Source: a virus
DNA: 35,419 bases
Reading direction: 5' to 3' (one strand)
UHGV virus genome: UHGV-0163616
Within the stretch, counting starts at the first letter, position 1, and every line of letters starts with the position of its first letter. The position numbers and the translations under genes were made by a program. The notes under the pieces were generated by a model that searched no databases, was not told the origin of the DNA, and saw nothing but the letters and a program-made list of their open reading frames with translations. This document shows, one piece after another, positions 27,285 to 30,445 of this stretch.

Positions 27285-28001
27285 ATGGAAAATAAAAAAT
27301 CACTGACGACAGAACAGCTGGAAGACGCTAAGCGGCTTAAGGCTTTGTATGAGTCAAAAAAGAAAGAATTGGGAATAACCCAATACTCAATCGCTGATGA
27401 ACTGGGTATCACCCAAGGAGCGGTAGGGCATTATCTTAATGGCAGAAATGCGCTAAACGTTGAGGTTGCATCTGGTTTTGCACGATTGTTGCAAGTCTCA
27501 ATTGCTGATTTTAGCCAGTCAATTGCTGCCAAGGTTGCAGAACAGGCAGAAAGCCTTAAGAGCGATGCCAACGTAAGGTATGCAGGGGAATACAGAGCAG
27601 GAAAGAGGTATCCGGTGTTAAGCAGTATCCAGGCTGGCTCGTGGTGTGAAGCATGCGAACCATACACCATTAAAGACATAGATGTTTGGCTTGAGTCTGA
27701 CGCGCATATTCAAGGTAATGCGTTCTGGCTTAAAGTGGAAGGTGATTCAATGACGGCACCGGTTGGGTTAAGCATTCCAGAGGGAACATTCGTTCTTTTC
27801 GATACCGGAAGGGAGGCGATCAACGGCAGCTTGGTCATAGCAAAACTTTCTGACTCTAACGAAGCAACATTCAAGAAGCTGATAATCGACGGCGGAAATA
27901 AATACCTCAAGGGACTTAATCCTGCATGGCCTCTCGTGCCAATCAATGGAAACTGCAAGATTATAGGCGTTGCAATTGAGACAAAACTAAGGCTGGTTTG
28001 A
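27285..28001 (+). CDS. cI: CI repressor (HTH plus S24 LexA-like autocleavage domain)
   Basis: 238 aa; N-terminus resembles lambda CI; C-terminal domain (KRYPVLSSIQAGSWCEACEPYTIKDIDVWL...FWLKVEGDSMTAP...GNCKIIGVAIE) resembles 434 cI; Ala-Gly cleavage site and Ser/Lys dyad context present. Confidence 0.9.
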   Translation: MENKKSLTTEQLEDAKRLKALYESKKKELGITQYSIADELGITQGAVGHYLNGRNALNVEVASGFARLLQVSIADFSQSIAAKVAEQAESLKSDANVRYAGEYRAGKRYPVLSSIQAGSWCEACEPYTIKDIDVWLESDAHIQGNAFWLKVEGDSMTAPVGLSIPEGTFVLFDTGREAINGSLVIAKLSDSNEATFKKLIIDGGNKYLKGLNPAWPLVPINGNCKIIGVAIETKLRLV

Positions 28002-28387
28002 TCACGCAAGGGGCGATTATGGTTGGAACCGCTATAGCAAGCTTTTTGGGGATGTTGGCAATCTCAACAATTTACGGCTTAGCGCATGCTTTTATTGCGA
28101 AATCTCTATCAGAAAAAATAAGCCAGGCTTGGGCGCATAGATCAGCTCGTTTCATGATTCTGGTGATCATGGCAATACAAGGGATATCTGCATTTATCCT
28201 CTATGGATCAAGCTTATACCTATTGTATCAAGGCGCGACATTTACGCCTTACACCAGTGATTACGGAACTCTATACGATGGTAGTGAAGACATCTCTATG
28301 GCTTGGATCATCTTTGGTTTATCTATGGCCGTGTCTGTTGTAGCAGACATCATTAAGGTAATTCTCGTCTTAACCTTCGCTGACTAA
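27998..28387 (+). CDS. Small polytopic membrane protein translationally coupled to cI (occupies the rexAB slot between cI and OL)
   Basis: 129 aa with about 4 hydrophobic helices; ATG overlaps the cI stop (ATGA); no recognisable family from sequence alone. Confidence 0.6.
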   Translation: MITQGAIMVGTAIASFLGMLAISTIYGLAHAFIAKSLSEKISQAWAHRSARFMILVIMAIQGISAFILYGSSLYLLYQGATFTPYTSDYGTLYDGSEDISMAWIIFGLSMAVSVVADIIKVILVLTFAD

Positions 28388-28517
28388 CTCATAATCCCGG
28401 CAGCAATAGCTATCGGGATCCACTTCACATATCCCGCATAAAAAGCACTGAACAAGCAGACACCGAAAAAATAAATATCCTTTGTATTCATTTGCTTATC
28501 ATTATTTCACCAAAAAT

Positions 28518-28560
28518 AAATACCTTGGGTATTTACACAATAAAATACCTACAGTATTCT
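28518..28560 (+). promoter_or_regulatory. OL operators (AAATAC-CTTGG-GTATTT at 28518-28534; AAATAC-CTACA-GTATTC at 28543-28559) overlapping PL
   Basis: Same half-site consensus and 25-bp centre spacing as the OR sites; PL -35 TTTACA (28532-28537), 17-bp spacer, -10 TATTCT (28555-28560), pointing rightward into N. Confidence 0.65.
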
Positions 28561-28605
28561 TTAGCCATCAGCAGGACGCTGGAAGCCAAACGGAACAGAT
28601 TGGCA

Positions 28606-28647
28606 GGCTCTTTAACATTGATGGGATTGTCCCGCCGAAATGCGGGA
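28606..28647 (+). promoter_or_regulatory. nutL: boxA (GGCUCUUUAACA) and boxB hairpin (UCCCGC-CGAAAU-GCGGGA)
   Basis: Located between PL and N; boxB identical to the nutR copy. Confidence 0.65.
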
Positions 28648-28754
28648 ACCAAAGAGTAGTTGGCTTTGGGGTGACGTGAAGTGCAGCTGCACGACGGCAA
28701 CCGGAAGATAAGCACCCGGCGCGTCACCGCCAAAGTCAATCATCGGAGGTCAAC

Positions 28755-29027
28755 ATGACAGTAGTCATTACATATCTGGCTGACGATAACGCCAGAAATC
28801 GCCGCAGAGCACGCAGACAGGCTCAACGTGAGCAGGCAATGCAAGAACAGCGACTGGCGCGAAAAATTGCGCTAAAGCTCTCTGGTTGCGTCAGAGCAGA
28901 CAAAGCAGCTTCACTCGGAAGCCTTCGCTGCAAGAAGGTAGATGAATGCAGTGGAAGTATTTGCCTGCCAAACGTAGCTCTTTACGCGGCAGGCTACCGG
29001 AAATCAAAACAACTGACAGCGAGGTGA
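28755..29027 (+). CDS. N: N-type transcription antiterminator (P22 gp24-like) with arginine-rich motif
   Basis: 90 aa; ARM NARNRRRARRQAQREQ; C-terminus PNVALYAAGYRKSKQLTAR resembles the P22 gene 24 C-terminus; GGAGG Shine-Dalgarno; downstream of nutL. Confidence 0.8.
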   Translation: MTVVITYLADDNARNRRRARRQAQREQAMQEQRLARKIALKLSGCVRADKAASLGSLRCKKVDECSGSICLPNVALYAAGYRKSKQLTAR

Positions 29028-29048
29028 CGATCCCCCGCCGTCGAGGAA

Positions 29049-29588
29049 CTAAATTAGCTCATCAGCTTTACCAGCAAAGCGCATATAACACTCATGGAAC
29101 CAGACGTCAGGTATAACAAATTTCTCTTTACCTGACGCGCTGTAAGTCACACCTGAGCGATGGAGAAGACCTTTTCTCATAAGAGATAAAGCGACCGGAT
29201 CGCCGTGCTTAAGTACGATTTTGTTATTTGCCATAACAGCAAATGCTAAAACCTCTTTTTCCTGAATACTCAGAGAATTGAACAGGCGCTCAGTCTCCAC
29301 AATTACTTTAGCCTCATCTCTCTTACTGAGATATTTTTTATATCTGTCTGAAGATGCCAGAAATATAAACTCCATCACCCTGTTCAGAACATAACTGATA
29401 CACAAAAGCATTGCGTAATACATCCAGTGATCTGGAAGTATTTCGGGGTTCCTTATATCTACCCACTCTTTAATTGATGCTGGGGTGATTATTATCAAGG
29501 CAATTAAAATAATAAGCATATGAATTAACTGTTGTAGCGTAAGACCACGCAGGAAGAAACGTAATAGTTCCTGCCACCAGTTACTCAT
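29049..29588 (-). CDS. Membrane-anchored protein, candidate superinfection-exclusion/abortive-infection protein (SieB-like by size, topology and position)
   Basis: 179 aa; two N-terminal hydrophobic helices then a soluble domain; convergent with N, so expressible in the lysogen independently of PL; AT-rich. Family assignment not verified. Confidence 0.55.
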   Translation of the reverse strand: MSNWWQELLRFFLRGLTLQQLIHMLIILIALIIITPASIKEWVDIRNPEILPDHWMYYAMLLCISYVLNRVMEFIFLASSDRYKKYLSKRDEAKVIVETERLFNSLSIQEKEVLAFAVMANNKIVLKHGDPVALSLMRKGLLHRSGVTYSASGKEKFVIPDVWFHECYMRFAGKADELI

Positions 29589-29794
29589 CGGTGAATCTCC
29601 ATCATTCTCTCTGTAGGGGTGAATAGAGTTTATCCGATTTCTCGCTGTAGGGGTACACGAGAACCACCGAGCCTGATGTGGTTAAAAGACAGGCACAATC
29701 TTTACTACCGCAAGCCACGCAGTGAAATGGGGGTGACTTGTGTTGGTCGCCAGAAAATGAAATTAGGCAGCAAACCACTTATTTGAGGTGATAT

Positions 29795-30058
29795 ATGGAC
29801 AAGAAAATTAAATCATTGAAGCCAGGAATTGTTATCAGAGACATAAGTGGTGATTACGATACAGAGACATATGATATTTTATATGTGCATGCAGATGGAA
29901 AATGTCAGTATTCGAACGACATTTTTAATAATAAAGGTGGTGCCGAAATTGCTGCCACCACAGTTAATAAAGAGTTAGTAGCTAACGAGTCGTGGGATTA
30001 TTTTATGCCATCATCCACTTCTATGAACTGGAAAGTGGTTTTGTACATTCCATCATAA
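29795..30058 (+). CDS. Hypothetical protein (AT-rich accessory ORF in PL operon)
   Basis: 87 aa ORF, roughly 33-35 percent GC by eye; no recognised motif. Confidence 0.5.
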   Translation: MDKKIKSLKPGIVIRDISGDYDTETYDILYVHADGKCQYSNDIFNNKGGAEIAATTVNKELVANESWDYFMPSSTSMNWKVVLYIPS

Positions 30059-30148
30059 TTGTAGCTGCCGTTCAAAAATGAAAGTAAATCTAACATCACA
30101 GGCCGCATACTCGGCCTTTATTTTTGGCATAAATACACAGAGGCTAAC

Positions 30149-30445
30149 ATGGAATTTAAAGGTACTGAAGGTAAGTGGGAAATAATGATGGATGGCGATG
30201 AGATTAAAATCATCCAGGCAGACTCACTTGAAAATGGCGCAGGCTGGCGTTCGTATATTGCAATCTGTGAGGAAGTTCAATGCATTGAAGATGCCAATCT
30301 AATAGCGGCAGCGCCTGACCTTCTCGAAGCACTTCAGTTATTACTTAAGCAAACCAAAAATAGAACAACGACAACATATCCAGAATGGTATGGAACTGTT
30401 AATAAAGGTATCGCAGCAATCAGAAAAGCTCTTGGGGATAAGTAA
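30149..30445 (+). CDS. Hypothetical protein (first of a translationally coupled pair)
   Basis: 98 aa; stop overlaps next start (TAATG). Confidence 0.5.
   Translation: MEFKGTEGKWEIMMDGDEIKIIQADSLENGAGWRSYIAICEEVQCIEDANLIAAAPDLLEALQLLLKQTKNRTTTTYPEWYGTVNKGIAAIRKALGDK

What the first reader, a model, noticed from the sequence alone, without database searches (positions are those of the whole stretch)
29049..29700. Convergent SieB-like membrane protein just beyond N, with a duplicated 13-bp motif in its promoter region
A 179-aa protein with two N-terminal transmembrane helices is encoded opposite to the PL operon immediately after N, so it needs its own promoter and can be expressed in the repressed prophage. 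Size, topology and location fit SieB-type superinfection exclusion. Its upstream region carries two copies of TC(T/G)CTGTAGGGGT (29609-29621 and 29643-29655; core CTGTAGGGGT at 29611-29620 and 29645-29654), 34 bp apart, which could be a regulator binding site or promoter element. The gene and its flank are AT-rich relative to the phage backbone.
Basis: partly seen in the sequence, partly recalled or inferred. Interest (0 to 1): 0.6.

Follow-up and report, generated by a model that had tools for sequence, protein, structure and literature searches.

The report
SieB exclusion gene with sas antisense RNA
This is an ordinary, already well-understood phage self-defence module: a diverged copy of the P22/lambda sieB superinfection-exclusion gene. 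The duplicated motif lies in its known promoter and in the known sas antisense RNA that regulates it.

Summary
ORF 29049-29588 (-) encodes a 179-aa protein with two hydrophobic segments, convergent with N. An exact 10-mer, CTGTAGGGGT, occurs at 29611-29620 and 29645-29654; the repeat is really 16 nt with 15/16 identical.

The SieB reading is right. The protein matches Pfam SieB at 72.8 bits against a cut-off of 26. It is 49% identical to P22 SieB over its full length, and the Esc internal start (M24) is conserved. RefSeq already names this allele SieB.

The upstream 100 bp is the P22 sieB promoter. All 31 annotated promoter bases are identical, which puts the inferred -10 at 29627-29632 and the start site at 29620. 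On the other strand it is the P22 sas antisense RNA, 100/101 identical from the first repeat on.

So the proximal repeat is the first 10 nt of the sieB mRNA. The distal repeat is the apex of a conserved sas hairpin and also covers the -35 position.

Comparing about 50 distinct relatives supports that hairpin and a 3' pseudoknot through compensatory changes. Rfam has no family for this RNA. The same promoter/sas cassette also drives unrelated cargo genes, such as the HK620 HkaP type.

Verdict: a new member of a known kind, of low interest. One speculative addition is that the two repeats may act as a split recognition site for the mRNA 5' end.

The parts
29049..29588 (-). sieB coding sequence (179 aa): two N-terminal hydrophobic segments, a long helix and a C-terminal domain modelled as a winged helix
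29049..29519 (-). Predicted esc reading frame: an in-frame internal start at Met24 (ATG 29519-29517), giving a 156-aa N-terminally truncated SieB
   Evidence: Met24 aligns with Met25 of P22 SieB, the annotated Esc start. It is invariant in alignment A2. Coordinates.
29589..29620 (-). Inferred 32-nt sieB mRNA leader. It begins 5'-ACCCCUACAG (the proximal repeat) and has a GGAG Shine-Dalgarno 8 nt before the ATG.
   Evidence: The P22 sieB RNA start site is annotated at the A of the same ACCCCTACAG. Sequence.
29627..29632 (-). -10 hexamer TAAACT of the sieB promoter. The whole 31-bp P22 promoter sequence is identical at 29627-29657.
   Evidence: P22 promoter TGTACCCCTACAGCGAGAAATCGGATAAACT is identical in the window. 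A TAnnnT hexamer lies exactly 6 nt upstream of the proximal repeat in 28 of 29 distinct spacers.
29605..29620 (+). Proximal repeat (16-nt copy; core CTGTAGGGGT at 29611-29620). It is the complement of nt 1-10 of the sieB mRNA and forms the loop and 3' arm of sas hairpin 1.
   Evidence: Predicted pairing of each position.
29639..29654 (+). Distal repeat (16-nt copy; core at 29645-29654). It forms the 5' arm and GGGG loop of sas hairpin 2 and occupies the -35 position of the sieB promoter on the other strand.
29584..29694 (+). Predicted sas antisense RNA, about 110 nt. Its 5' end lies opposite the SieB start codon. It comprises hairpin 1, hairpin 2 and a 3' pseudoknot. Both ends are inferred, not mapped.
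   Evidence: The P22 sas sequence from RNA-seq (PMC13397905) is 100/101 identical to the window from the first repeat on. In P22 the distance from the 5' end to the end of the pseudoknot is 110 nt, against 105 nt in the literature.
29640..29662 (+). sas hairpin 2: TCTCG-C-TGTA-GGGG-TACA-CGAGA
   Evidence: RNAalifold on an unguided alignment finds it. 94.8% of cells are paired, with many G-U pairs and one pair changed on both sides.
29663..29694 (+). sas 3' H-type pseudoknot. Stem 1 is ACCACC (29663-68) with TGTGGT (29677-82). Stem 2 is GCCTGA (29671-76) with ACAGGC (29689-94). The third loop is A-rich.
   Evidence: Five of 6 stem-1 pairs and 2 of 6 stem-2 pairs show changes on both sides in 35 distinct relatives. 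That alignment was hand-fitted. Each stem also appears in unguided minimum-energy folds of different members.
29005..29042 (-). Terminator-like hairpin and T-rich tail just after the sieB stop codon, overlapping the 3' end of N
   Evidence: Consensus scan: 10-bp stem with 7 G-C pairs, tail AGTTGTTTTG.
28755..29027 (+). N antiterminator gene of the pL operon, whose read-through transcript runs antisense across sieB
   Evidence: Pfam N_peptide 59.6 bits. 96-97% nucleotide identity to HK620 and HK140 N.

Best explanation
This is a diverged allele of the P22/lambda sieB-esc-sas superinfection-exclusion module.

In the repressed prophage, sieB is transcribed from its own promoter, which has a -10 hexamer but no recognisable -35. 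The inferred -10 is TAAACT at 29632-29627 and the inferred start is 29620. The mRNA yields full-length SieB, an inner-membrane abortive-infection protein, and Esc, an in-frame product starting at Met24 that neutralises SieB.

When pL is active, after induction or in a superinfecting phage that carries the module, leftward transcription runs antisense through sieB. It yields the roughly 110-nt sas RNA (about 29584-29694, + strand). sas pairs with the 32-nt leader and the start codon, blocks SieB translation and leaves Esc translation, so the phage escapes its own exclusion.

The duplicated motif belongs to this overlap of promoter and antisense RNA. The proximal copy is the first 10 nt of the mRNA and its complement in sas. 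The distal copy is the apex of sas hairpin 2 and sits where a -35 element would be.

Shown here: family membership, identity of the promoter and sas sequence to P22, conservation of the -10, and compensatory support for hairpin 2 and the pseudoknot. Inferred from P22 work: the start site, Esc, the sas action and the exclusion phenotype.
For: - Protein: Pfam SieB 72.8 bits against a cut-off of 26; PHROG 1301 at 3.6e-94; 48.9% identity to P22 SieB over 99% of the length; Met24 aligned to the P22 Esc start.
- Layout: identical to P22, lambda and HK140.
- Promoter: all 31 bases of the P22 promoter are identical, and the annotated RNA start is the A of ACCCCTACAG.
- -10 hexamer: TAnnnT lies 6 nt upstream of the proximal repeat in 28 of 29 distinct spacers.
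- sas: the P22 sas RNA defined by RNA-seq contains both repeats and is 100/101 identical to the window from the first repeat on.
- Structure: 90.1% of cells are paired, against 27-45% when partners are slid; 8 pairs changed on both sides, against 3.9 in shuffles (1 of 500 reached it); covariation score 0.182 against 0.090 (0 of 500). G-U cells outnumber A-C cells 29 to 14, which favours the sas strand. RNAalifold finds hairpin 2 independently.
- Annotation: RefSeq already names this allele SieB.
Against: - Nothing was measured in this phage. The start site, Esc, sas and exclusion are all transferred from P22.
- The SieB protein is only 49% identical to the P22 protein, so its target range may differ.
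- I could not read the two Ranade and Poteete papers. I therefore cannot say whether sas has its own promoter or is processed from the pL transcript, and I found no convincing promoter for it.
- The pseudoknot alignment was fitted by hand, and most relatives were collected with a pattern that required both repeats. The invariance of the repeats in that set is therefore partly built in.
- The consensus promoter scan did not call the sieB promoter, because it has no -35 match.
Confidence: 0.85

Rival explanations
1. The two 10-mers are DNA binding sites for a regulator protein, of host or conserved phage origin. It would clamp the -10 region of the sieB promoter through two direct repeats 34 bp apart.
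For: The repeats flank the -10 hexamer at about -34 and +1. The promoter has no -35 match, so a helper factor is conceivable. Both copies are kept in phages of different immunity types.
Against: The positions flanking the distal copy change in a compensatory way that preserves RNA pairing: TCTCG/CGAGA becomes TCTCT/AGAGA, and TACA becomes TATA, TATG or TACG through G-U pairs. A protein site does not predict this. When only the distal copy was required in the search, the proximal copy differed by one or two bases, or by an extra G, in about 18 of the newly found members. No candidate regulator is known, and none is encoded next to the module.
Confidence: 0.07
2. The conserved 100 bp is mainly a recombination linker between mosaic modules, a 'boundary sequence' in the sense used for HK620 and CUS-3. 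The repeats would then be a relic of an old duplication with no present function.
For: The segment is almost identical in phages whose flanking genes differ. At least three alternative sequences start right after CAGGCA at about 29696. The same segment precedes unrelated cargo genes. CUS-3 is annotated with such boundary sequences.
Against: Divergent members keep the helices through changes on both sides rather than keeping the sequence. The -10 hexamer keeps its TAnnnT pattern and spacing while its other bases vary. The RNA accumulates in infected cells in P22. A role as a recombination hot spot is compatible with the main explanation and does not replace it.
Confidence: 0.06
3. Hairpin 2 and the pseudoknot act in cis on the long pL transcript, for example as a processing or stability element for the flanking early-left mRNA. 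They would not be parts of a trans-acting sas RNA.
For: Four related loci (L341, L351, L363, L377) have lost the proximal repeat and the cargo gene but keep the -10, hairpin 2 and the pseudoknot intact. The pseudoknot has no U tail, so it is not an intrinsic terminator.
Against: A discrete small RNA with these boundaries is seen in P22 infection. According to the reviews, its antisense action on sieB was shown genetically. The cargo-less loci may simply be recent deletions.
Confidence: 0.05

Closest known systems
Salmonella phage P22 sieB / esc / sas module (Ranade and Poteete 1993; annotated in BK000583)
   Same: Same Pfam family. Full-length 48.9% identity. Same convergent position after the N homologue (gene 24). 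Identical 31-bp promoter. Same start-site sequence. Esc start at the aligned methionine. sas region 100/101 identical from the first repeat on.
   Different: The protein is only about half identical and lacks the last 13 residues of P22 SieB. The leader differs in about a quarter of its 27 bases before the repeat, has a stronger GGAG Shine-Dalgarno and holds a 6-codon upstream ORF. The host is E. coli, not Salmonella. Nothing has been tested in this allele.
Phage lambda sieB (NP_597779, between N and ral)
   Same: Same family and same position. Both repeats, hairpin 2 and the pseudoknot are kept, and the -10 hexamer is the same TAAACT.
   Different: The protein is about 20% identical. The leader is unrelated, and the sequence around the proximal repeat differs.
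HK620 hkaP and relatives ('putative superinfection exclusion protein')
   Same: Same promoter/sas cassette (87% identical in HK620). Same position and orientation after N.
   Different: The cargo protein is unrelated to SieB. It is 164-167 aa, has no Pfam family and no transmembrane segment, and carries C-terminal CxxC pairs.
Lambda RexAB and P22 SieA (other prophage-expressed exclusion systems)
   Same: They are expressed from the repressed prophage and act against superinfecting phages. RexB and SieA are inner-membrane proteins (PMC10883804).
   Different: No sequence relationship. RexAB is co-transcribed with cI. SieA blocks DNA entry, whereas SieB aborts infection midway through the lytic cycle. 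Neither has an Esc or antisense escape device.

Membership tests
SieB superinfection exclusion protein B (Pfam PF14163) | Score above the family's gathering cut-off | tested here: met
   72.8 bits against a cut-off of 26; residues 23-154 match profile positions 2-127 of 147.
SieB superinfection exclusion protein B (Pfam PF14163) | Full-length homology to the experimentally characterised P22 SieB | tested here: met
   tblastn gives 48.9% identity over residues 2-179, E 2e-42. Alignment.
SieB superinfection exclusion protein B (Pfam PF14163) | Two N-terminal membrane-spanning segments | tested here: met
   Kyte-Doolittle windows above 1.6 at residues 16-39 and 58-79. These are helices in the AlphaFold model, though at low confidence there.
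SieB superinfection exclusion protein B (Pfam PF14163) | Located just after the N-type antiterminator of the pL operon and convergent with it | tested here: met
   N 28755-29027 (+), sieB 29049-29588 (-). Same layout in P22, lambda and HK140.
SieB superinfection exclusion protein B (Pfam PF14163) | Aborts lytic growth of superinfecting phages | not testable with these tools
   Needs plating or burst assays on a lysogen or an expression clone.
P22-type sieB regulatory module (own promoter, Esc, sas) | Promoter homologous to the mapped P22 sieB promoter and start site | tested here: met
   All 31 bases are identical, and the start-site sequence CTATTC-A-CCCC is identical. The -10 is conserved across the family. 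Promoter activity itself was not measured.
P22-type sieB regulatory module (own promoter, Esc, sas) | In-frame internal initiation codon giving Esc | tested here: met
   Met24 aligns with P22 Met25, the annotated esc start, and is invariant in A2. Translation from it was not tested.
P22-type sieB regulatory module (own promoter, Esc, sas) | Antisense RNA covering the leader and the SieB start codon but not the Esc start | tested here: inconclusive
   The DNA is 100/101 identical to the P22 sas RNA from the first repeat on. By homology the 5' end falls at the SieB start codon, 65 nt before the Esc ATG. Expression and ends in this phage are unknown.
Any Rfam RNA family | Match to a curated covariance model | tested here: not met
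   cmscan of 28300-30300 at E up to 10 gave no match overlapping 29584-29700. sas therefore has no Rfam family in release 15.
Known anti-phage defence systems (PADLOC-DB 2.0) | Match to a defence-system protein model | tested here: not met
   No PADLOC model matched the protein at E up to 0.1. NCBIfam also gave none.

The most novel reading that the evidence does not exclude
The duplicated decamer may be a split recognition device in the sas RNA. Predicted folds of 48 distinct relatives show hairpin 1 exposing CUGUA in its loop while its GGGGU is paired. Hairpin 2 exposes GGGG while its UGUA is paired. Together the two loops would present the full complement of the single-stranded 5' end of the sieB mRNA (5'-ACCCC|UACAG), so they could capture it by a two-loop kissing contact before the 36-nt duplex zips up. 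In this reading sas is a structured RNA family (two hairpins and a 3' pseudoknot, absent from Rfam). Together with the sieB promoter it would form a portable cassette that places different prophage genes (SieB, HkaP-type and others) under an escape switch driven by pL.
Probability: 0.2. Interest if true: 0.5.

Novelty: new member of a known kind. Interest (0 to 1): 0.25.

Why it matters
For annotation, the region can be labelled with confidence as sieB, esc, the sieB promoter and sas. The protein and its regulation were worked out in P22 thirty years ago.

The modest added value is comparative.
- The sas RNA is conserved across lambdoid phages of Enterobacterales. It has a hairpin and a 3' pseudoknot supported by compensatory changes, and it has no Rfam family.
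- The same promoter/antisense cassette is joined to unrelated cargo genes.
- The SieB C-terminal domain models as a cytoplasmic winged helix. That gives a starting point for the still unknown trigger of SieB-mediated abortive infection.

Tried and rejected
- Rfam scan of the region at E up to 10: nothing on the element.
- The two primary papers (PMID 8335629, PMID 8339929, PMC204922) and the P22 genome paper are not held. Details of sas biogenesis therefore rest on two recent papers and on my memory of the abstracts.
- My first literature search was too loose and returned noise.
- A mis-spaced DNA pattern wasted one viral scan.
- An automatic search for the pseudoknot register gave inconsistent registers and crashed. 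I replaced it with a hand alignment, checked against the real sequences.
- RNAalifold found hairpin 2 but no consensus hairpin 1, and it cannot represent the pseudoknot.
- I looked for a sigma-70 promoter for sas inside the 5' end of sieB, in the window, P22 and HK620 types. I found only weak -10-like hexamers and none that was shared. Whether sas has its own promoter or is processed from pL stays open.
- I tested whether variants of the proximal repeat stay complementary to the distal repeat. G-to-A changes would give U-G wobbles, but other variants give mismatches, so the result is inconclusive.
- The extended 16-nt similarity, and an alternative pairing of the proximal repeat with the 3' arm of hairpin 2, are specific to the P22 and window lineages, so I did not treat them as family features.
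- PADLOC and NCBIfam have no model for SieB. There is no solved structure by sequence.
- Many two-repeat hits in unrelated GTDB genomes are identical to the lambda sequence and look like lambda DNA contamination; several are very short, low-coverage contigs. Others are coding repeats. Both kinds were excluded.

Full report
**Observation.** It starts 21 bp beyond the stop of a 90-aa N-type antiterminator (28755..29027 +; Pfam N_peptide 59.6 bits) and converges on it. A hydropathy scan shows two hydrophobic stretches at about residues 16-39 and 58-79. The decamer CTGTAGGGGT is exact at 29611-29620 and 29645-29654. The repeat in fact extends to 16 nt with 15/16 identical (29605-29620 and 29639-29654, spacing 34). 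An exact direct repeat of 10 nt or more turned up in 7 of 2000 dinucleotide shuffles of 29589-29700. The gene is AT-rich (39.4% GC against 47.1% for the window), but the promoter flank is not (48.2%).

**The protein.**
- It matches Pfam SieB (PF14163) at 72.8 bits against a cut-off of 26.
- It matches PHROG 1301 ('superinfection exclusion') at 3.6e-94.
- By tblastn it is 48.9% identical to P22 SieB over residues 2-179 (E 2e-42). No deposited phage has a copy above 60% identity.
- The same allele at 99-100% identity is present in about twenty IMG/VR prophage contigs.
- It is also present in E. coli chromosomes, where NCBI's pipeline already calls it 'super-infection exclusion protein B' (for example NRG 857C, 98.3% over 99% of the query).
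- Met24 aligns with Met25 of P22 SieB, the annotated start of Esc, inside the conserved LIHMLII motif.

The convergent layout after N is the same in P22 (gene 24/sieB), lambda (N/sieB) and HK140. Membership in the SieB family is therefore met on every criterion that sequence can test.

**The upstream region on the sieB strand.** Aligning 260 bp upstream of the start codons of the window, P22, HK140, HK620 and lambda shows about 100 bp that are almost invariant, although the coding regions on one side and the sequences on the other diverge. The P22 record annotates a sieB promoter, TGTACCCCTACAGCGAGAAATCGGATAAACT, and an RNA start at the A of the following ACCCCTACAG. The window is identical over all 31 bases and over the start-site sequence. 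By homology this gives:
- a -10 hexamer TAAACT at 29632-29627;
- a start at 29620;
- a 32-nt leader with a GGAG 8 nt before the ATG.

The proximal repeat is thus the first ten transcribed bases. The distal repeat lies at about -34 to -25, where a -35 hexamer would be, and the sequence there (TACCCC) does not resemble TTGACA. Across 29 distinct spacer variants from related loci, a TAnnnT hexamer sits exactly 6 nt upstream of the proximal repeat in 28 (T 28/29, A 29/29, final T 29/29). This is good comparative support for the promoter and its start site. A terminator-like hairpin follows the sieB stop codon on the - strand (29042-29015 plus a T-rich tail).

**The upstream region on the other strand.** P22 makes an antisense RNA, sas, that switches translation of the sieB mRNA from SieB to Esc (Ranade and Poteete 1993, as summarised in PMC12197685, which gives 105 nt and cis action). 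A 2026 RNA-seq study lists the P22 sas sequence (127 nt; PMC13397905, Table 2). It starts opposite the SieB start codon (UUCAUCGG...), contains both CUGUAGGGGU copies and runs on to ...CAGGCACAAUCUUUACUACCGC. From the first repeat on, the window is identical to it at 100 of 101 positions. Only the part antisense to the leader differs. In P22 the distance from the RNA-seq 5' end to the end of the structure described below is 110 nt, close to the published 105 nt. Both repeats therefore lie inside the sas gene, predicted here at about 29584-29694 (+). Only the first 36 nt or so of sas are complementary to the sieB mRNA. The rest lies upstream of the mRNA start.

**Structure of the sas element.** I collected relatives in four ways.
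- Through SieB protein matches in IMG/VR.
- Through a two-repeat DNA pattern in IMG/VR.
- Through the same pattern in one genome per GTDB species. Real hits there are Enterobacterales such as Yersinia, Moellerella, Phytobacter, Symbiopectobacterium and Phlomobacter.
- Through a pattern that fixes only the distal repeat.

RNAalifold on an unguided MAFFT alignment of 30 variants predicts one robust helix, hairpin 2. This is TCTCG-C-TGTA-GGGG-TACA-CGAGA at window 29640-29662, with the distal repeat as its 5' arm and GGGG loop. Downstream, divergent members suggested two interleaved helices:
- stem 1, ACCACC with TGTGGT (29663-68 and 29677-82);
- stem 2, GCCTGA with ACAGGC (29671-76 and 29689-94).

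Together these form an H-type pseudoknot with an A-rich third loop.

On a hand-made alignment of 35 distinct sequences (each checked to occur in the real loci), the counts were as follows.
- 90.1% of cells form standard pairs, against 27-45% when partners are slid.
- 8 pairs show changes on both sides, against 3.9 in shuffles (1 of 500 shuffles reached this).
- The covariation score is 0.182 against 0.090 (0 of 500).
- Stem 1 has double changes at 5 of 6 pairs, for example CCAC/GTGG to CCTC/GAGG and to CGGG/CCCG.
- Stem 2 has them at 2 of 6, for example GCCTG/CAGGC to GCCGGG/CCCGGC.

G-U cells outnumber A-C cells 29 to 14, which favours the sas strand as the folded one.

Three caveats apply. 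The alignment was fitted to the structure. The rows are related. Most members were found with a pattern that demanded both repeats. Against that, each stem also appears in unguided minimum-energy folds of different members. Rfam has nothing for this RNA. The pseudoknot has no U tail, so I take it to be a protective 3' end structure of a processed RNA. That role is inference.

**What the two repeats do.** Thermodynamic folding of 48 distinct members shows the two copies in complementary contexts.
- In hairpin 1, CUGUA is mostly unpaired (0.57-0.78) and GGGGU mostly paired (unpaired 0.05-0.33).
- In hairpin 2, UGUA is paired and GGGG is the loop (unpaired 0.87).

The first seven nucleotides of the window's sieB mRNA are predicted to be single-stranded. 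The two loops together would therefore display the complement of 5'-ACCCC|UACAG. This suggests a two-loop kissing contact that nucleates sas-mRNA pairing. I rate this as speculative, at about 0.2. When only the distal repeat was fixed in the search, the proximal copy differed by one or two bases, or by an extra G, in about 18 of the newly found members. Some of those changes keep complementarity through wobble pairs and some do not.

A DNA-level role as a regulator site is not excluded, but the compensatory changes around the distal copy are what an RNA helix predicts and not what a protein site predicts. The longer 16-nt similarity is specific to the P22 and window lineages.

**The cassette is portable.** Downstream of the promoter, 147 loci carry SieB-family proteins of the lambda, P22 and window types. 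Another 25 carry an unrelated 164-167-aa protein of the HK620 HkaP type, with no Pfam family and C-terminal CxxC pairs. Two carry other small proteins. Four loci have lost the cargo and the proximal repeat but keep the -10, hairpin 2 and the pseudoknot. On the far side, at least three alternative sequences begin right after CAGGCA at about 29696. The element thus also behaves as a mosaic joint. Phages such as CUS-3 have N followed by ral with no cassette at all.

**How it most likely works.**
1. In the lysogen, the sieB promoter makes an mRNA that yields SieB and Esc.
2. SieB is an inner-membrane protein. By the positive-inside rule both termini are cytoplasmic, which is inference.
3. SieB stops macromolecular synthesis midway through the lytic cycle of superinfecting relatives (P22 data summarised in PMC10883804).
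4. Esc inhibits SieB (PMC3224144).
5. A phage with an active pL that carries the cassette makes sas, which masks the leader and the SieB start codon. Esc then predominates and the phage is spared.

Steps 3 to 5 are transferred from P22 and were not tested here.

**Comparison and verdict.** The closest known system is the P22 sieB-esc-sas module. This one differs in having a half-identical protein that lacks the last 13 residues, in its leader sequence, and in its host. It is a new member of a known kind, and automated annotation already names it. Its reading of the repeats as a promoter or regulator element is partly right in position but misses the antisense RNA. Interest is low (0.25). The only parts that might be new are the comparative picture of sas as a structured, Rfam-absent RNA with a 3' pseudoknot, its linkage to different cargo genes, and the split-loop idea.

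Noticed in passing
window 29703-29786 (+): This stretch encodes YYRKPRSEMGVTCVGRQKMKLGSKPLI*, the lambda-like C-terminus of the CUS-3-type N protein (99% nucleotide identity to the CUS-3 N 3' end). It is detached from the window's own N, which shares residues 1-64 with CUS-3 N and then ends differently. Relative to CUS-3, 754 bp (28947-29700) look inserted into N; they carry an alternative N 3' end, sieB and the promoter/sas cassette. Lambda, P22 and HK140 keep only about 20 bp of this remnant next to the cassette.
   Followed up: partly
window 27998-28387 (+): A 129-aa predicted membrane protein (PHROG 6534, unknown function; no Pfam, PADLOC or NCBIfam match). Its start overlaps the stop of the cI-type repressor gene (27285-28001). 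That is the position of rexAB in lambda and hkaS in HK620, so it is probably co-expressed with the repressor in the lysogen.
   Followed up: partly
window 29585-29605 (-): The sieB leader of this allele holds a 6-codon upstream ORF (AUGAUGGAGAUUCACCGAUGA, MMEIHR*). Its stop overlaps the SieB AUG (AUGA). It is absent from the P22 leader, and its own ribosome-binding spacing looks poor.
   Followed up: no
L007, L009-L011, L013, L014, L016, L017, L027, L359, L361, L362 (proximal repeat): Among otherwise near-identical window-type alleles, the G run of the proximal repeat has 4, 5 or 6 G. That gives a C run of 4-6 at +2 of the mRNA. It could be a real homopolymer polymorphism at the start site or an assembly error.
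   Followed up: no
L341, L351, L363, L377: These are cargo-less versions of the cassette. The -10, hairpin 2 and the pseudoknot are intact, but the proximal repeat and the downstream gene are replaced by a CCCCC...GGGGG hairpin and the end of a gene on the other strand.
   Followed up: partly
L003 2224-2718 (HK620 hkaP) and 24 other loci such as L096: An unrelated 164-167-aa protein sits behind the same promoter/sas cassette in place of SieB. It has no transmembrane segment and no Pfam family, and carries two C-terminal CxxC pairs.
   Followed up: partly
L229, L231, L232, L253, L254, L256, L259 and others: Very short, low-coverage contigs in genome assemblies of unrelated bacteria (Nocardioides, Enterococcus, Vibrio, Paenibacillus and others) are identical to the lambda sieB upstream region. 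This is most likely lambda DNA contamination of those assemblies.
   Followed up: no
[not shown]
   Followed up: partly
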